37,740 nucleotides of DNA from a virus (Duplodnaviria > Heunggongvirae > Uroviricota > Caudoviricetes), in the IMG/VR virus record IMGVR_UViG_2778261277_000009, positions 1 through 37,740 of that record; one strand, 5' to 3'. A program made the translations under genes and the position numbers. The notes below the pieces were generated by a model that was not told the origin of the DNA, searched no databases, and worked only from the letters and a program-made list of their open reading frames with translations. Each line of letters begins with the position of its first letter. Position 1 is the stretch's first letter. Below are positions 12,671 through 36,686 of the stretch, one piece after another.

Positions 12671-12842
12671 GTATTTTTAAGTCACGAATGCTATCTTTTC
12701 GCATCATATTGACCTTTTAATCGTTCAGGCTTATAGTTCCGCCGTCGTAGCAAATTCTGCGACCAGGTTTGACAGCCTGAATGATTGTGCGGACAACCGC
12801 AGATTTCCGATATTGCGGTATTTTTGTGTCCGTTAAACCGCG

Positions 12843-12945
12843 TTACGCCCAAATTATGGTGGGGCGTGATGGGGAGGCTTCGGCCTGCTGGTTTCACAAT
12901 CGCCAGTCTGTCAACCCTGTCACGTCCTGCCACCTGTTTGACAGC
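12843..12945 (+). ncRNA. c4: c4 antisense repressor RNA region (approximate boundaries)
   Basis: Several hairpins upstream of icd; one loop (UUCACAAUCG, 12890-12899) is complementary to GAUUGUGA at the icd ribosome-binding site (12968-12975). Position matches P1 c4. Confidence 0.4.
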
Positions 12946-31780: not shown

Positions 31781-33795
31781 GAGAGCTGTGCTATGGATCT
31801 GTTTGCAGTGGAATTGAAGCCGCGAGCATTGCCTGGGAACCGTTGGGTATGCGTCCGGCGTGGTTTGCTGAGATCGAGCCTTTTCCATCTGCCGTTCTTG
31901 CGCACCGCTGGCCCCATGTCGCCAACCTTGGCGACATGACAAAACTCGCCCAAAAAGTCCAGGCAGGAGAAATTGAAGCCCCTGATATGCTCGTCGGGGG
32001 TACGCCTTGTCAGGCATTCAGTATCGCGGGCTTACGTGGTGGGCTTGATGATGAGCGCGGCGCGCTAACTTTGAAGTATGTGGAGCTTGCAAATGCAATT
32101 GACGACAAACGGGCTGAGTCCTTCCTCAAACCAGCAGTTATCGTCTGGGAAAATGTCCCAGGAGTCCTGTCATCAGCAGATAACGCGTTCGGATGTTTCC
32201 TTGCCGGATTGGCTGGAGAAGATGCGCCATTCGAACCTGGTGATCGACCTGAATCACGAAAAAGTAATACGTTCTGGCGGTGGGATGTCAAAACCGGTTG
32301 CCATGCTCCAAAGTGGCCGCAGTGTGGTTGTATTTATGGACCGCAGCGAAAAGTGGCCTGGAGAATCCTTGATGCCCAATACTTCGGAGTGGCACAACGA
32401 CGCCGACGCGTGTTTGTTGTCGCAAGTGCTCGAACAGACCTCGATCCCGCAACGGTACTTTTTGAGTTCGAAGGCGTGCGCCGGAATATTGCGCCGAGCA
32501 GAGGCGAGGGGAAGGAAACTACCAGATATACTTCAAACATCGCTATCAGAACTTGCGATGATACAAACATAATTGCCATGGCACATGGGCAAGGAGGGGC
32601 TGAGATAAAAACCGATAATTCGGCACCAACTTTGACATGTAACCATGAAGCACCAATTGTATTGCTCGGCGACGGTAGAATGCGCCGTCTTACCCCTGTC
32701 GAATGTGAAAGGCTGCAAGGTTTTCCTGATGGGCATACGTTGATCCCGACGGAAAAGCGTAAAAAAGTTAATTCAGATGAACTGGCATATCTTCGCAATC
32801 ACTATCCAGATTTAAGCGAAGAAGAGGCCGCGATGCTTGCAGCTGACGGACCGCGTTACAAAGCGATCGGCAATAGTATGGCAATACCAGTAATGTGCTG
32901 GATTGGAGATCGGATTACTAAGGCCGTATGTCGGCAGAAAGAAGGAAGTGAAACAAAAGAGCGAAAAGTTAAACCAGCGGCAGAATTCGAACGGTCCATA
33001 TTCAAATGGGCTGGTGGAAAATTTGGTGTTCTGGAACAAATCTTTCACTATTTGCCAGAAGGGAAGCGCCTGATTGAACCTTTCGTTGGTGGCGGAGCTG
33101 TCTTCATGAATGCCGGATACCAGGAAAATCTGCTAAATGATGTGAATGCTGACCTGATTAACTTTTACAAGACTCTGCAACGCGAGGCGCATTCACTTAT
33201 CACTCTGGCACATCGTTTCTTCCTGGACTACAACACCCAGGAGGGATTCCTGGCAGTACGGAATGCGTTTAACAAACAAGTCTATGATGATTTACATCGC
33301 GCAGCGGCGTTTTTGTTCCTGAACCGACATTGTTTTAATGGATTGACGCGCTACAACCAGGCCGGTGAGTTCAATGTCGGTTATGGGAAGTATAAAACTC
33401 CGTATTTCCCATTACAGGAGATGGAAGCCTTCCTCGGTGCGGAAGGGCGGTCTGAGTTTGTATGCGGTGATTTTGCAGCAGTGATTGAAGCTGCCGGAGA
33501 AGGAGATGTCATCTTTTGCGATCCGCCGTATGAACCGCTCCCCAATACAGAGGGGTTTACGAACTATTCCGGTCATGACTTTAAGTTTGAAGAGCAAAAA
33601 CGCCTGGTGTCTCTGTTGACGGATGCTCATCGCCGAGGTGCAAAGGTACTCATTACTAACAGTGGCGCGCCAAACGTCAGAGAACTTTATCAGGACAGTG
33701 GCTTCAGAGTGGAACCTCTCTTTGCCAGACGTTCTGTGTCTTGTAAGGGAGACACTCGTGGTGTTGCTCATGACGTTATGGCTATATTGCTCTAA
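31777..33795 (+). CDS. dmt: bifunctional DNA methyltransferase: N-terminal C5-cytosine MTase fused to C-terminal Dam-like N6-adenine MTase
   Basis: GTG start overlapping the rdgC stop; C5-MTase motifs [11 protein letters not shown] (PCQ), ENVPGV (ENV), QRRRVFVVA; C-terminal FKWAGGK and DPPY motifs. Confidence 0.9.
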
Positions 33796-33815
33796 TAAAT
33801 TTATTAGTGTAATAT
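33786..33815 (+). promoter_or_regulatory. C1 operator (perfect consensus, Op72-like) overlapping a sigma70-like promoter toward the tRNA/ban region
   Basis: ATTGCTCTAATAAATTT exact (33786-33802), followed by a partial inverted half-site; -35 TTGCTC, 17-nt spacer, -10 TAATAT (33810-33815). Confidence 0.7.
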
Positions 33816-33989
33816 CACCTCAATGAATCGTGATTTATAGAGCGATTTAGCTGTTAGCCGCGACAGGCGCGGCGGCAAGTATGGCGGGGTAGTGACTCCT
33901 TCCCCATCATGACGCCGAGTTGCCAGGTTGACCATACGCCTAAGTGGCAACACCGAAGTGCGTTACGAGCTTCCAGTTTGCCCATCTTC

Positions 33990-34015
33990 GGGTGGGCGTT
34001 TTTTTCAGGGTTTTC
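33990..34015 (+). terminator. strong rho-independent terminator about 190 nt downstream of the operator/promoter
   Basis: GCCCATC-UUCG-GGTGGGC stem with tetraloop followed by G and seven T. Confidence 0.7.
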
Positions 34016-34471: not shown

Positions 34472-34547
34472 GATGGTGTAGCTCAGCGGTTAGAGCGGTT
34501 GACTGTTAATCAACGGGTCGATGGTTCAAATCCATCCACCATCGCCA
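34472..34547 (+). tRNA. tRNA-Asn (anticodon GTT)
   Basis: Hand-folded cloverleaf: 7-bp acceptor GATGGTG/CACCATC, D-arm TAGCTCAGCGGTTAGAGC, anticodon loop CTGTTAA, T-loop TTCAAAT, encoded CCA. Confidence 0.85.
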
Positions 34548-34549
34548 AT

Positions 34550-34625
34550 GCCGGTTTAGCTCAGTTGGTAGAGCGCCTGCCTTGTAAGCAGGATGTCAGC
34601 GGTTCGAGTCCGTTAACCGGCACCA
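34550..34625 (+). tRNA. tRNA-Thr (anticodon TGT)
   Basis: Cloverleaf with acceptor GCCGGTT/AACCGGC, anticodon loop CTTGTAA, T-loop TTCGAGT, encoded CCA; starts 2 nt after tRNA-Asn. Confidence 0.85.
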
Positions 34626-35188
34626 GCACAACAGGTAAGGGCATTCTCCCTTATAGGGCTTGGCTTAAATGCATCGAGTGCTCTTACCGTTGTGATGAAG
34701 TGCAGCTCTTTGAAGCAACCAGAAGATAAGCATCTGGCTTCACAACATAAACCGCAGGAACGACCAATAAACGGTAGTCCGTATGGAGAACACCCCGTTG
34801 AGGAAGAGGCCTGGCCGGAACCGTAACCGGCGACTGGTAATGTGTGTAAATGGAGCGAAATATGTGGGCGTTTAACGGGATACGGGTTGTAACAGCGATT
34901 ATTAACGGCGAACTTAAGTATTCACGTTTCGAGACAAATGAACGTGATGGGAAATGTATTGGTGTGCGGTTAGTAAGAGAATACGCATAACAACTACAAC
35001 GTTGAGAACACTGGCGTAACGGGGTCATATCCCAATCTATGAATAAATGTTGCGTTGCAGCGTGACAACCAGTGTTCTCAACATTGTGGTGAATGCACAG
35101 GCTGATGTGCCGCAACTACAGTAGTGCGCGCTTTGCGGGGCTTGCTACAACCCTGTGTCGGAGTTCAGCACCGACCATCACAATCACT

Positions 35189-35275
35189 GGAGAGTAGGGA
35201 GCATGGTGCTCAAACGGTCTTGAAAACCGTCCCATTGCGCAAGCGATGATGGTTCGATTCCATTACTCTCCGCCA
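35189..35275 (+). tRNA. tRNA-like element, class II (long variable arm), anticodon-arm identical in type to tRNA-Ser(UGA); atypical D-arm
   Basis: Perfect 7-bp acceptor GGAGAGT/ACTCTCC plus G and CCA; anticodon stem-loop ACGGT-CTTGAAA-ACCGT; T-arm GATGG-TTCGATT-CCATT; 17-nt variable region; D-arm only 4 bp with a 5-nt loop. Confidence 0.4.
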
Positions 35276-35538
35276 GTGCAACGTTAAGAGTATTTGGCTA
35301 ATTAAGCGAATGCCGGAAGCAGAACCGGATCACCAAATGCGTACAGGCGTCATCGCCGCCCAGCCAGCCAAGTGCTCTTACCATTGCGGTGAATGCGGCT
35401 ATGCGCACGCGGAACAGTTAAAACAATCCTCCTTAGTGGTTAAGTCAAACATCCCGGCGTTAATTGTTAACTGGTTAACGTCACCTGGAGGCACCAGGCA
35501 CCGCAGCTTTTTTATTCGTTAAATAATGGAGTGAGAGG

Positions 35539-35775
35539 ATGCAGAACAATCCGAACAAATGTCGAACGCTATGGGTGCGGTTATATATTTATGCCGTCCT
35601 CTGTTTGATTGTGTCACTGGTTCTGTATGTTTGGCTTTTGCCAAATATGATCTCATCTAACAGCACAATACTTGTATTGTTGGGAGTCCTTTTCGCGCTC
35701 ATTTACCCGGCTTTCGCAGTAGTCTTTTTTCGTGAAAAAACCAGGAAATTAATTAATGAAAAAAACGTTGATTAG
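35539..35775 (+). CDS. upl: small two-helix membrane protein upstream of plp (Upl-like)
   Basis: 78 aa with two hydrophobic helices; GGAG SD; overlaps the plp start. Confidence 0.5.
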   Translation: MQNNPNKCRTLWVRLYIYAVLCLIVSLVLYVWLLPNMISSNSTILVLLGVLFALIYPAFAVVFFREKTRKLINEKNVD

Positions 35776-36583
35776 TGCAGCGATTATTTTGGGTTCTTTA
35801 TGTCTGACCGGATGCGATCGGGTAGAGCCAGGTAACGTAGGGATCAAAGTAAATAAGCTGGGGGATGATAAAGGTATCGGTGAAGTAGTTGGTGTTGGTC
35901 GCTACTGGACAGGCTTGAATACTGAAGTTTATATCTTCCCGACCTTTAAGCAAATGAAGACATACGATGAGCCGTTCAGCTTCCAGATGAGCGACGGAAC
36001 AACCATTGGTTACCACATCGGCGTAGCCTACAAGGTTGATCCAGCAAAAGTCACAACGGTATTTCAGACCTATCGCAAAGGTGTAGATGATATTACTGAT
36101 ACCGATCTACGCCAGAAGGTTGCAGATGCTCTGAACCGGTTAGCCAGCAAAATGACCACCGACAAATTTATCGACGGTGGCAAATCTGAATTGCTTGATG
36201 CAGCCCTTAAAGACATTCAGGAAGAAATGACGCCAATCGGCATTCAGGTGATGAGCCTCTCTTATGTAGGTAAGCCAGAATATCCGCCAACAGTTATTGA
36301 CAGTATTAACGCCAAAGTTACGGCAAACCAAAAAACCCTGCAACGCGAGCAAGAGGTCAAACAACGTGAAGCAGAGGCCAACATGCTGCGCGCGGAAGCT
36401 GCCGGACAGGCTGATGCTATTCGCACAAAAGCCCAGGCCGAAGCTGATGCCATTCGTTTACGTGGTGAAGCTCTGCGCCAGAACCCCGGTGTTATGGAGT
36501 TGGAAGCGATCAACAAATGGAACGGTACATTACCGCAGTATATGACCAGTAATACCGCTGTTCCGTTTGTTCCGGTGAAATAA
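35756..36583 (+). CDS. plp: lipoprotein Plp (SPFH/band-7-like fold candidate)
   Basis: Signal peptide with lipobox LCLTGC; C-terminal Ala/Glu/Gln/Arg-rich coiled coil. Confidence 0.65.
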   Translation: MKKTLISAAIILGSLCLTGCDRVEPGNVGIKVNKLGDDKGIGEVVGVGRYWTGLNTEVYIFPTFKQMKTYDEPFSFQMSDGTTIGYHIGVAYKVDPAKVTTVFQTYRKGVDDITDTDLRQKVADALNRLASKMTTDKFIDGGKSELLDAALKDIQEEMTPIGIQVMSLSYVGKPEYPPTVIDSINAKVTANQKTLQREQEVKQREAEANMLRAEAAGQADAIRTKAQAEADAIRLRGEALRQNPGVMELEAINKWNGTLPQYMTSNTAVPFVPVK

Positions 36584-36610: not shown

Positions 36611-36686
36611 GGCCCTTTAGCTCAGTGGTTAGAGCTGGCGACTCATAATCGCACGGTCACCGGTTCAAGTCCGGTAGGGGCCACCA
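36611..36686 (+). tRNA. tRNA with anticodon CAT (Ile2/lysidine-type or Met)
   Basis: Acceptor GGCCCTT/AGGGGCC, D-arm TAGCTCAGTGGTTAGAGC, anticodon loop CTCATAA, T-loop TTCAAGT, encoded CCA. Confidence 0.8.

What the first reader, a model, noticed from the sequence alone, without database searches (positions are those of the whole stretch)
35189..35275. Possible fourth tRNA or tRNA-like element with a Ser(UGA)-type anticodon arm and atypical D-arm
An 87-nt segment folds with a perfect 7-bp acceptor stem ending in G-CCA, a canonical T-arm (TTCGATT loop), a long variable arm and an anticodon stem-loop of the tRNA-Ser(UGA) type. The D-arm is abnormally short (4-bp stem, 5-nt loop), so standard scanners may miss it. 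It could be a functional phage tRNA, a decaying tRNA, or a tRNA-like recombination or processing site. P1 is usually described with three tRNAs.
Basis: seen in the sequence. Interest (0 to 1): 0.45.

Follow-up and report, generated by a model that had tools for sequence, protein, structure and literature searches.

The report
Phage tRNA-Ser gene, unusual D-arm
The 87-base segment is a real serine tRNA gene that some P1-like phages carry as a fourth tRNA; it is already annotated in public genomes, and its odd shape belongs to a known class of phage serine tRNAs with a compact D-arm.

Summary
ARAGORN calls tRNA-Ser(UGA) there. A covariance model built only from non-P1-like relatives scores it 81.7 bits (E~4e-19), against 45-47 bits for conventional tRNA-Ser.

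It is not new. RefSeq annotates the identical 87 nt as tRNA-Ser in P1-like plasmid prophages, the phage D6 record annotates it, and a D6-like plasmid paper reports Asn/Thr/Ser/Met tRNAs. P7 also has it. Canonical P1 lacks it: the gene sits in a ~185-bp cassette (35183-35367) that P1 and Ro157c2YLVW replace with unrelated sequence. The tRNA plus its 3' spacer is 82% identical to rV5.

The short D-arm is a family trait, not decay. 29 of 120 sampled phage tRNA-Ser(NGA) genes have it, and its stem covaries. In this family position 8 pairs with 65 (A-U, U-A, G-C) while 49:65 is often mismatched. That fits the 8/4 tRNA-Ser class of Mukai et al. 2017, but the window sequence alone cannot separate 8/4 from 7/5.

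Phage T5's tRNA-Ser1(UGA) has the same architecture, and its GenBank record says it can be converted into an effective amber suppressor.

UCA codons are about twice as frequent in the phage ORFs as in an E. coli sample.

Verdict: functional, already known, modest interest.

The parts
35189..35275 (+). tRNA-Ser(UGA) gene, 87 nt, with encoded CCA
   Evidence: ARAGORN. The identical sequence is annotated tRNA-Ser by PGAP in NZ_CP028585.2 at 48690-48776. The family model R1 gives 81.7 bits.
35189..35196 (+). Acceptor stem 5' strand (positions 1-7) plus A8, which can pair with U65 to give an 8-bp stem
   Evidence: Pairs 1-7 are 100% standard across 28 relatives, and 5 of the 7 show double changes. 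The 8:65 pair is A-U in 19, U-A in 5, G-C in 1 and unpaired in 3. RNAalifold predicts 8:65 as paired.
35199..35211 (+). Compact D-arm: stem GAGC/GCUC (plus an optional A-U closing pair) and loop (A)UGG(U)
   Evidence: All 4 stem pairs show changes on both sides across relatives. In the Klebsiella phage copy the A-U pair becomes G-C. The tRNA-Sec model and the MFE fold both use this register.
35214..35230 (+). Anticodon arm; loop CUUGAAA; anticodon UGA at 35221-35223
   Evidence: The stem is 95.7% paired, with 4 of 5 pairs changed on both sides. The loop is identical to that of E. coli serT.
35234..35247 (+). Long variable arm: 5-bp stem with a GCAA tetraloop
   Evidence: Sequence. Covariation in the outer 4 pairs. 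Class II tRNA feature.
35248..35272 (+). T-arm (G49, then AUGG-UUCGAUU-CCAU, then U65), acceptor 3' strand ACUCUCC, and discriminator G73
   Evidence: Sequence. T-stem pairs 50:64 and 51:63 covary. The 49:65 pair is G.U in 16, U-A in 3 and unpaired in 9.
35183..35367 (+). Cassette of ~185 bp: the tRNA-Ser plus a ~90-nt 3' spacer. Present in the window, P7, D6 and pWCHEC4533; replaced by unrelated sequence in P1 and Ro157c2YLVW
   Evidence: blastn breakpoints at 35182 and 35368-35373. Alignment A3. Window 35189-35364 is 82% identical to rV5 locus L004 1501-1670.
33786..33815 (+). C1 operator and P1ban-type promoter sequence (ATTGCTCTAATAAATTT...TAATAT) upstream of the tRNA cluster; the presumed source of transcription
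   Evidence: Sequence, compared with the annotated Oban/P1ban of P1 record AF234172. Its role for this tRNA is inferred.
34472..34625 (+). Neighbouring tRNA-Asn(GUU) at 34472-34547 and tRNA-Thr(UGU) at 34550-34625, in the same cluster
   Evidence: ARAGORN and Rfam.
36611..36686 (+). tRNA with anticodon CAU, annotated tRNA-Ile (ileX-like) in P1; the last tRNA of the cluster
   Evidence: P1 annotation.

Best explanation
It is a working phage-encoded tRNA-Ser(UGA) gene.

Where it sits. It lies in a small exchangeable cassette inside the tRNA region of a P1-like phage-plasmid, between the C1-controlled ban promoter and the ban helicase gene.

How it most likely works. The following steps are inferred:
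- It is co-transcribed with tRNA-Asn, tRNA-Thr and tRNA-Ile when C1 repression is lifted.
- It is matured by host RNase P and 3' trimming. The CCA end is encoded.
- Host seryl-tRNA synthetase charges it through the anticodon-independent serine identity set: the long variable arm, G73, and G1-C72, G2-C71 and A3-U70.
- It then reads UCA codons, and by wobble other UCN codons.

Shown here: UCA codons are about twice as frequent in the phage genes as in host genes.

Architecture. It belongs to a phage-borne tRNA-Ser lineage that also includes the tRNA-Ser genes of T5, rV5-like phages, and some Klebsiella, Pseudomonas and Streptomyces phages. The lineage has a compact, tRNA-Sec-like D-arm (4-5 bp stem, 3-4 nt loop, A8 instead of U8). 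Its 12-bp acceptor/T branch is most probably arranged 8/4 (A8-U65 paired, 4-bp T-stem) rather than 7/5. That is the (8/4) tRNA-Ser class of Mukai et al. 2017.
For: Gene call:
- ARAGORN.
- PGAP annotates the identical 87 nt as tRNA-Ser, with no pseudogene flag.
- 72 of 5426 complete E. coli genomes hold at least 80% of window 35100-35360.
- The D6 record annotates it. PMC6799933 reports Asn, Thr, Ser and Met tRNAs in a D6-like plasmid.

Structure under selection:
- On 28 relatives, 91-92% of cells are paired, against 71% in shuffles and 37-54% when partners are slid. 19 of 25 pairs show double changes.
- The window and the Klebsiella phage copy differ at 10 positions. Six of these form three compensatory pairs.

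Independent model: R1, trained on 23 non-P1-like sequences, gives 81.7 bits for the window. It gives 46.9 bits for E. coli serT and 44.6 bits for T4 tRNA-Ser.

Family trait: 29 of 120 distinct phage tRNA-Ser(NGA) genes have the compact D-arm.

8/4 arrangement:
- In the compact set, 8:65 is Watson-Crick in 25 of 29, with three pair types, and 49:65 is mismatched in 9.
- In the 91 conventional genes, 8:65 is Watson-Crick in 2 and 49:65 is Watson-Crick in 83.
- The close relative L030 has U8-A65 together with A49.A65.
- RNAalifold predicts 8/4 without guidance.
- The tRNA-Sec model scores 45.1 bits. Mukai et al. found their allo-tRNAs through that same model (PMC5389517).

Function of the architecture:
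- T5 tRNA-Ser1(UGA) scores 78.4 bits on R1 with all pairs standard. Its GenBank note says an anticodon swap gives an effective amber suppressor.
- 8/4 and 9/3 allo-tRNAs insert Ser in E. coli (PMC5389517).

Identity elements: G1-C72 and G2-C71 are present in 28 of 28 relatives and A3-U70 in 25 of 28.

Codon demand:
- UCA is 19.8% of Ser codons in 34 window ORFs and 10.5% in 46 E. coli K-12 CDS (odds ratio 2.1, p 2e-7).
- ACA and AUA, read by the other phage tRNAs, are enriched in the same way.
Against: - There are no expression, processing or aminoacylation data for this gene or any P1-like copy.
- The generic Rfam tRNA model stays below its threshold.
- No sigma-70-like promoter is predicted nearby. 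A terminator-like hairpin at 33976-33998 lies between the ban promoter and the tRNAs, so co-transcription is an inference from P1 annotation.
- The gene is dispensable: canonical P1, RCS47 and Ro157c2YLVW lack it.
- The D6 copy has a broken D-stem pair, and L077 has a broken variable-stem pair.
- For the window sequence itself, A8-U65 (8/4) and G49.U65 (7/5) are both possible and equal in energy, -29.7 against -29.6 kcal/mol.
- Three compact-D relatives (L090, L108, L038) have U8.U65 and must be 7/5.
- The anticodon stem is 5 bp, not the longer stem described for typical allo-tRNAs.
Confidence: 0.85

Rival explanations
1. It is a decaying tRNA pseudogene: a remnant acquired from an rV5-like phage that is no longer used in translation, and the short D-arm reflects a deletion.
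For: - The P1-like copies have a D-loop one base shorter than rV5 and T5.
- The generic tRNA model is below threshold.
- One annotation pipeline labels a Klebsiella phage relative 'pseudogene'. tRNAscan-SE did not call the amino acid for D6.
- D6 and L077 each carry one broken pair.
- The cassette is absent from P1.
Against: - The compact D-arm is shared by distant phages and its stem covaries.
- Within the P1-like lineage, changes are compensatory.
- All 25 pairs in the window copy are standard.
- The CCA end, G73 and the first three acceptor pairs are intact.
- The sequence is identical in many independent plasmids.
- T5's equivalent is recorded as functional.
Confidence: 0.07
2. It is a tRNA-like RNA or DNA element with a non-decoding role: a recombination or integration target, a processing signal for the ban-operon transcript, or a decoy or replacement aimed at host tRNA-targeting defences.
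For: - It sits at a mosaic junction, with cassette borders at 35182 and 35368.
- tRNA genes move repeatedly between rV5-like and P1-like phages. The Ro157c2YLVW tRNA-Tyr resembles the rV5 tRNA-Tyr.
- The non-canonical architecture might change recognition by nucleases. This is inference only.
Against: - It is a complete tRNA with a conserved serine identity set and a conserved Ser anticodon (UGA or AGA) across the family. That is the constraint pattern of a decoding tRNA.
- P1-like prophages are plasmids, and no integrase or att-type partial tRNA copy was seen.
- The flanking 26-nt repeat is also present in P1, which lacks the cassette.
- The 3' spacer has no significant fold, z -0.09.
- The anticodon loop is identical to the host's, unlike known nuclease-evading phage tRNAs.
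Confidence: 0.06
3. It is a selenocysteine or recoding tRNA, given the near-threshold match to the tRNA-Sec model.
For: RF01852 scores 45.1 bits against a gathering score of 47. The D-arm is tRNA-Sec-like.
Against: - The anticodon is UGA (serine codon UCA), not UCA.
- The acceptor/T branch has 12 pairs, not the 13 (8/5) of bacterial tRNA-Sec (sequence; PMC7609411).
- The D-stem is 4-5 bp rather than 6 bp.
- Mukai et al. describe exactly such hits as false positives of the tRNA-Sec model.
Confidence: 0.01

Closest known systems
tRNA-Ser annotated in P1-like plasmid prophages, phage D6 and D6-like plasmids (for example NZ_CP028585.2 48690-48776; MF356679 7145-7231; pYU39_89 in PMC6799933)
   Same: The RefSeq plasmid copies are identical to the window. 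The D6 copy is 97.7% identical and the unannotated P7 copy 98.9%. All occupy the same position between tRNA-Thr and the downstream genes.
   Different: Nothing essential. The window's surroundings are a different mosaic, with an extra 161 nt at 34832-34992 and a lipoprotein/protease module instead of tciA-C.
Phage rV5 trnS, tRNA-Ser(UGA), and its Vequintavirinae homologues
   Same: 89% identity over the tRNA. The ~90-nt 3' spacer is also homologous, with 82% identity overall. Same A8-G9, D-stem GAGC/GCUC, anticodon arm and T-arm.
   Different: rV5 has one more base in the D-loop (AAUGG) and a longer variable arm, for 91 nt in all. It sits in a larger tRNA array of a virulent myovirus.
Phage T5 tRNA-Ser1(UGA), T5t08, NC_005859 30845-30934
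   Same: Same architecture: A8-G9, 5-bp D-stem with a tetraloop, G49/U65, long variable arm. It scores 78.4 bits on R1 with all pairs standard. Its GenBank record states that an anticodon swap gives an effective amber suppressor.
   Different: 71% identity. The discriminator is U73 instead of G73, and the D-loop has 4 nt.
(8/4) tRNA-Ser and allo-tRNA class (Mukai et al. 2017, PMC5389517)
   Same: [quoted passage not shown]
   Different: The anticodon stem is 5 bp, not extended. The D-stem is 4-5 bp with a 3-nt loop. In this particular sequence a conventional 7/5 reading with G49.U65 is equally possible. The paper's consensus figure and supplement could not be read.
Canonical bacterial tRNA-Ser(UGA), E. 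coli serT, and phage T4 tRNA-Ser
   Same: The same anticodon loop CUUGAAA, a long variable arm, G73, a GGA... acceptor start and an encoded CCA.
   Different: serT and the T4 gene have U8, a 20-nt D region with a large loop, and a Watson-Crick 49:65 pair. They are 64-66% identical to the window and score only 45-47 bits on R1, against 81.7 bits.

Membership tests
tRNA (functional class II tRNA-Ser) | A cloverleaf with acceptor, D, anticodon, long variable and T arms, supported by covariation | tested here: met
   91-92% of cells are paired across 28 relatives, and all five helices show double changes. ARAGORN call. R1 gives 81.7 bits.
tRNA (functional class II tRNA-Ser) | A serine anticodon in a 7-nt loop with U33 and a purine at 37 | tested here: met
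   The loop is CUUGAAA with anticodon UGA, identical to E. coli serT.
tRNA (functional class II tRNA-Ser) | E. coli SerRS identity set: long variable arm, G73, G1-C72, G2-C71, A3-U70 (set recalled from established literature) | tested here: met
   All are present in the window. Across the family, G1-C72 and G2-C71 occur in 28 of 28 and A3-U70 in 25 of 28. Actual charging was not tested.
tRNA (functional class II tRNA-Ser) | A mature, aminoacylated RNA is made | not testable with these tools
   No expression data are available. Indirect support: the T5 homologue is recorded as convertible to an amber suppressor.
Canonical 7/5 tRNA as modelled by Rfam RF00005 | Reaches the family gathering score of 29 bits; has U8 and a standard D-loop | tested here: not met
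   There is no RF00005 match at gathering threshold. Position 8 is A, and the D-loop has 3-5 nt.
(8/4) tRNA-Ser / allo-tRNA (Mukai et al. 2017) | A 12-bp acceptor branch made of an 8-bp acceptor stem and a 4-bp T-stem | tested here: inconclusive
   The family level favours 8/4. The 8:65 pair is A-U in 19, U-A in 5 and G-C in 1 of 28, whereas 49:65 is G.U in 16, U-A in 3 and unpaired in 9. RNAalifold predicts 8/4. In the window itself, A8-U65 and G49.U65 are both possible and equal in energy.
(8/4) tRNA-Ser / allo-tRNA (Mukai et al. 2017) | A D stem-loop resembling tRNA-Sec: a long stem and a very small loop | tested here: met
   The stem is 4-5 bp and the loop 3-5 nt. The stem covaries.
(8/4) tRNA-Ser / allo-tRNA (Mukai et al. 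2017) | A long variable arm and a G73 or U73 discriminator | tested here: met
   The variable stem is 5 bp with a GCAA loop, and the discriminator is G73.
(8/4) tRNA-Ser / allo-tRNA (Mukai et al. 2017) | An anticodon stem longer than in canonical tRNAs | tested here: not met
   The stem is 5 bp. The next possible pair is A.C (marks it as non-standard). This feature is stated for allo-tRNAs in general. Whether it holds for the (8/4) tRNA-Ser subgroup could not be checked, because the figure and supplement are not held.
tRNA-Sec (RF01852) | Anticodon UCA, a 13-bp acceptor branch (8/5 in bacteria), a 6-bp D-stem, and a score above the gathering threshold | tested here: not met
   The anticodon is UGA, the branch has 12 bp, and the D-stem is 4-5 bp. 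The score is 45.1 bits, below 47.

The most novel reading that the evidence does not exclude
The compact-D, probably 8/4 architecture may be a selected property of a horizontally mobile phage tRNA-Ser cassette rather than a neutral quirk. This cassette is shared among P1-like, rV5-like and T5-like phages and others. One possibility is that the architecture makes the phage's UCN decoder invisible to a host or competitor nuclease, a modification-dependent defence, or a turnover pathway that recognises the canonical D-arm and elbow of host tRNA-Ser. The phage would then keep translating when host tRNA-Ser is attacked or depleted.
Probability: 0.1. Interest if true: 0.6.

Novelty: already known. 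Interest (0 to 1): 0.22.

Why it matters
The practical value is in annotation.
- P1-like phage-plasmids do not all carry the textbook three tRNAs. A subset, including P7 where it is not annotated, carries a fourth, tRNA-Ser(UGA), on a small exchangeable cassette shared with virulent rV5-like phages.
- The analysis links well-known cultured coliphages (T5, rV5, P7 and D6) to the non-canonical (8/4) tRNA-Ser class, which was described mainly from metagenomes. The T5 suppressor note is an existing experimental handle on that class.
- It explains why generic tRNA covariance models and older scanners miss or mislabel these genes.

None of this changes current understanding of tRNA biology.

Tried and rejected
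- The generic Rfam scan gave no tRNA hit at the site. Only the permissive scan revealed the tRNA-Sec-like match.
- The supplement of Mukai et al. is not held, and neither is the P1 genome paper, tried as PMC523184. The published 8/4 consensus and the P1 operon description therefore could not be read directly.
- The P1-like phage-plasmid survey PMC9603915 does not mention tRNAs.
- My first 'compact D-arm' classifier picked up spurious helices inside canonical D-loops. I replaced it with one that requires the hairpin to span the whole D region.
- Alignment A4 had shifted 5' ends and was discarded. A5 still shifts three sequences by one column.
- T4 tRNA-Ser was tried as an experimental anchor but proved conventional. 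T5 served instead.
- ARAGORN's D-arm register (GGG/CTC, 9-nt loop) was rejected on energy and covariation.
- I tested whether P1's replacement segment is a decayed copy. R1 gave no hit at E<=10, and the apparent MAFFT similarity was judged forced.
- I considered the flanking 26-nt direct repeat as an insertion scar. It was rejected because P1 has both copies without the cassette.
- I looked for a structured element in the rV5-shared 3' spacer. The fold z-score was -0.09.

Full report

Yes, at exactly the stated coordinates. ARAGORN finds four tRNAs in the window:
- Asn(GUU) at 34472-34547
- Thr(UGU) at 34550-34625
- Ser(UGA) at 35189-35275
- a CAU-anticodon tRNA at 36611-36686

Read directly from the sequence, the 87 nt have these features:
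- a perfect 7-bp acceptor stem
- discriminator G followed by an encoded CCA
- T-loop UUCGAUU
- a 5-bp anticodon stem with loop CUUGAAA
- a variable arm with a 5-bp stem and a GCAA tetraloop
- a D-arm GAGC-AUGGU-GCUC

The fold is better than all 200 shuffles (z -3.24). Rfam's generic tRNA model does not reach its gathering score here, although it scores the other three tRNAs at 65-75 bits. In a permissive scan the best family is tRNA-Sec, at 45.1 bits against a threshold of 47, E 3e-8. That model aligns the D-arm as a long stem with a tiny loop.

**2. What the window is, and whether the element is known**

The window is a P1-like phage-plasmid (Punavirus-type):
- It has the C4 antisense RNA and its targets.
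- It has the C1 operator and P1ban sequence at 33786-33815 (compared with the P1 annotation).
- Its closest phage records are P1 relatives.

The identical 87 nt are annotated 'tRNA-Ser' by PGAP in ~90-kb E. coli plasmids, for example NZ_CP028585.2 48690-48776, with no pseudogene flag. 72 of 5426 complete E. coli genomes hold at least 80% of window 35100-35360.

P7 has it at 98.9% identity but leaves it unannotated. A paper on D6-like plasmid prophages reports four tRNAs: Asn, Thr, Ser and Met (PMC6799933).

Canonical P1 has three tRNAs and no copy of this element.

**3. A small exchangeable cassette**

P1 and Ro157c2YLVW are 95-99% identical to the window up to 35182, six bases before the tRNA. 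They regain homology at 35368-35373. In between they carry 151 and 131 nt of unrelated sequence. The family model finds no tRNA remnant in that sequence.

The window's 35189-35364, which is the tRNA plus ~90 nt of 3' spacer, is 82% identical to the trnS region of the virulent myovirus rV5. The tRNA alone is 89% identical. The spacer has no significant fold. The 26-nt direct repeat that brackets the region is also present in P1, so it is not an insertion scar.

This looks like modular exchange of tRNA genes between rV5-like and P1-like phages. Ro157c2YLVW likewise carries a tRNA-Tyr that closely resembles rV5's.

**4. The odd D-arm is a family trait**

BLAST finds relatives annotated as tRNA-Ser in rV5-like phages, T5-like phages, and Klebsiella, Pseudomonas and Streptomyces phages.

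I then scanned viral contigs for Ser(UGA) anticodon loops followed by a long variable arm and a T-loop, leaving positions 8, 49 and 65 free. I parsed 120 distinct tRNA-Ser(NGA) genes:
- 91 are conventional, with U8 and a ~20-nt D region such as UGGCAGAGUGGUCGAAUGCG.
- 29 have a hairpin that spans a compact D region, with a 4-6 bp stem and a 3-6 nt loop usually containing UGG.

The D-stem covaries freely. Examples are GAGC/GCUC, GGGC/GCCC, GCUC/GAGC, GCUA/UAGC, GCGG/CCGC, GCGU/ACGC and CUCC/GGAG.

On an alignment of 28 compact-D sequences:
- 91-92% of cells are paired, against 71% in column shuffles and 37-54% with slid partners.
- All five helices, including all four D-stem pairs, show changes on both sides.

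Within the P1-like lineage, the window and the copy in Klebsiella phage vB_Kpn_1825-KPC53 differ at ten positions. Six of these form three compensatory pairs and one is a G.U/A-U switch.

A covariance model built from 23 relatives, with every P1-like sequence excluded, gives these scores:

| Sequence | Bits |
|---|---|
| Window element (E ~4e-19, no non-standard pair) | 81.7 |
| E. coli serT | 46.9 |
| T4 tRNA-Ser | 44.6 |

**5. 7/5 or 8/4?**

In the compact-D set:
- Position 8 is Watson-Crick to position 65 in 25 of 29: A-U in 19, U-A in 5 and G-C in 1.
- The conventional T-stem pair 49:65 is a plain mismatch in 9 and G.U in 16.

In the 91 conventional tRNAs the pattern is reversed: 8:65 is Watson-Crick in 2, and 49:65 is Watson-Crick in 83.

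A close relative with the same D-stem (L030) has U8-A65 together with A49.A65. RNAalifold, with no guidance, predicts an 8-bp acceptor stem and a 4-bp T-stem for the family.

This is the architecture that Mukai et al. (PMC5389517) named 8/4. They reported it for serine tRNAs of bacteriophages. [quoted passage not shown] The group was found among 'false positives' of the Rfam tRNA-Sec model.

Caveats:
- In the window itself (A8, G49, U65) both readings are possible and equal in energy, -29.7 against -29.6 kcal/mol.
- Three compact-D relatives have U8.U65 and must be 7/5.
- The anticodon stem is 5 bp, not extended.
- I could not read the paper's consensus figure or supplement.

I therefore call membership of the 8/4 class probable, at about 0.6, not established.

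**6. How it most likely works**

Shown here:
- The gene is intact and under structural selection.
- It carries the anticodon loop of the host's tRNA-Ser(UGA).
- It has G1-C72, G2-C71, A3-U70, G73 and the long variable arm. These are conserved across the family.
- It lies in the same orientation as the other tRNAs, downstream of a C1 operator and ban promoter sequence.

From outside evidence:
- T5's tRNA-Ser1(UGA) has the same architecture (78.4 bits on R1, all pairs standard). Its GenBank record says it becomes an effective amber suppressor when its anticodon is replaced.
- 8/4 and 9/3 allo-tRNAs insert serine in E. coli (PMC5389517).
- SerRS prefers 12-bp acceptor branches and does not read the anticodon (PMC7609411).

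Inferred:
- transcription with the ban operon on derepression
- processing by host enzymes
- serylation by host SerRS
- decoding of UCA and, by wobble, other UCN codons

The codon usage fits. The phage figures come from 34 window ORFs and the host figures from 46 E. coli K-12 genes.

| Codon | Phage | E. coli K-12 |
|---|---|---|
| UCA (share of Ser codons) | 19.8% | 10.5% |
| ACA (share of Thr codons) | 25% | 16% |
| AUA (share of Ile codons) | 20% | 6% |

For UCA the odds ratio is 2.1, p 2e-7. ACA and AUA are the codons served by the phage's tRNA-Thr and tRNA-Ile.

Weak points:
- The simple scan predicts no promoter nearby.
- A terminator-like hairpin at 33976-33998 lies between the ban promoter and the tRNAs.

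**7. Rivals**

- Pseudogene. This is unlikely given the compensatory changes, the intact identity elements and identical copies in many plasmids. The D6 and L077 copies each have one broken pair.
- Non-decoding tRNA-like element (recombination site, processing signal or decoy). This is not favoured. The conserved features are those of a decoder, no att-like partial copy or integrase context was seen, and the anticodon loop is unchanged from the host's.
- tRNA-Sec. This is excluded by the anticodon UGA, the 12-bp branch and the sub-threshold score.

**8. Verdict**

The finding is a correct reading of a real gene. The gene is already annotated and published as the fourth tRNA of some P1-like and D6-like elements. 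Its unusual shape belongs to a described class. What this analysis adds:
- the cassette boundaries
- the link to rV5
- the family-level evidence for a compact D-arm and probable 8/4 arrangement in cultured coliphages, including T5
- the codon-usage match

Interest is low to modest.

Noticed in passing
window 34832-34992: A 161-nt segment is present in the window and in Ro157c2YLVW but absent from P1, P7, D6 and pWCHEC4533, where the subject coordinates run on without a break. It contains a small ORF at 34850-34990 (+, 46 aa).
   Followed up: partly
window 35071-35096 and 35371-35396; 34993-35014 and 35069-35090: There is a 26-nt direct repeat (85% identical, 300 nt apart) that brackets the tRNA-Ser cassette. 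There is also a 22-nt inverted repeat (91% complementary) just upstream. Both are also present in P1, which lacks the cassette, so they are not insertion scars. Their role is unknown.
   Followed up: partly
window 35385-35505: A sub-threshold match to the Rfam sRNA family STnc100: 40.1 bits against a gathering score of 47, E 8.5e-7, covering model positions 31-147 of 206. It lies just downstream of the cassette and upstream of the small membrane-protein ORF at 35539-35775.
   Followed up: no
L001 1653-1739 (Ro157c2YLVW) and L004 1300-1386 (rV5): Ro157c2YLVW carries an extra 87-nt tRNA-Tyr(GUA) between tRNA-Asn and tRNA-Thr. It closely resembles rV5's tRNA-Tyr. This is a second case of tRNA genes shared between rV5-like and P1-like phages.
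   Followed up: partly
L004 1690-1788 (rV5): ARAGORN reports an odd 99-nt 'tRNA-???' with a four-base anticodon (atcc) directly downstream of the rV5 tRNA-Ser spacer. It is not annotated in the rV5 record.
   Followed up: no
window 35539-36583: Downstream of the tRNA-Ser, the window has a 78-aa ORF and a 275-aa ORF. Relatives annotate the latter as lipoprotein, SPFH-domain protein or serine protease, and it is ~86% identical to segments of lambdoid and Stx phages. Canonical P1 has tciA, tciB and tciC here instead. The tRNA region is a mosaic hot spot.
   Followed up: partly
window 33976-33998: A strong terminator-like hairpin followed by a run of T. It lies in the region that the P1 record labels 'dicF-like', between the ban promoter and the tRNA cluster. 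It may limit read-through into the tRNAs.
   Followed up: no
L090 3213-3296, L108 6974-7055, L038 259-341: Three viral-contig tRNA-Ser(UGA) genes have the compact D-arm (GACAG-NUGG-UUGUC) but U8.U65 and G49.U65. They therefore have a compact D-arm without a possible 8/4 arrangement. The two features are not strictly coupled.
   Followed up: partly
window 12731-12783 and 12852-12937: The C4 antisense RNA and its a1/b1 target sites are detected above the Rfam thresholds. This is the known P1 immI immunity region and confirms the identity of the window.
   Followed up: no
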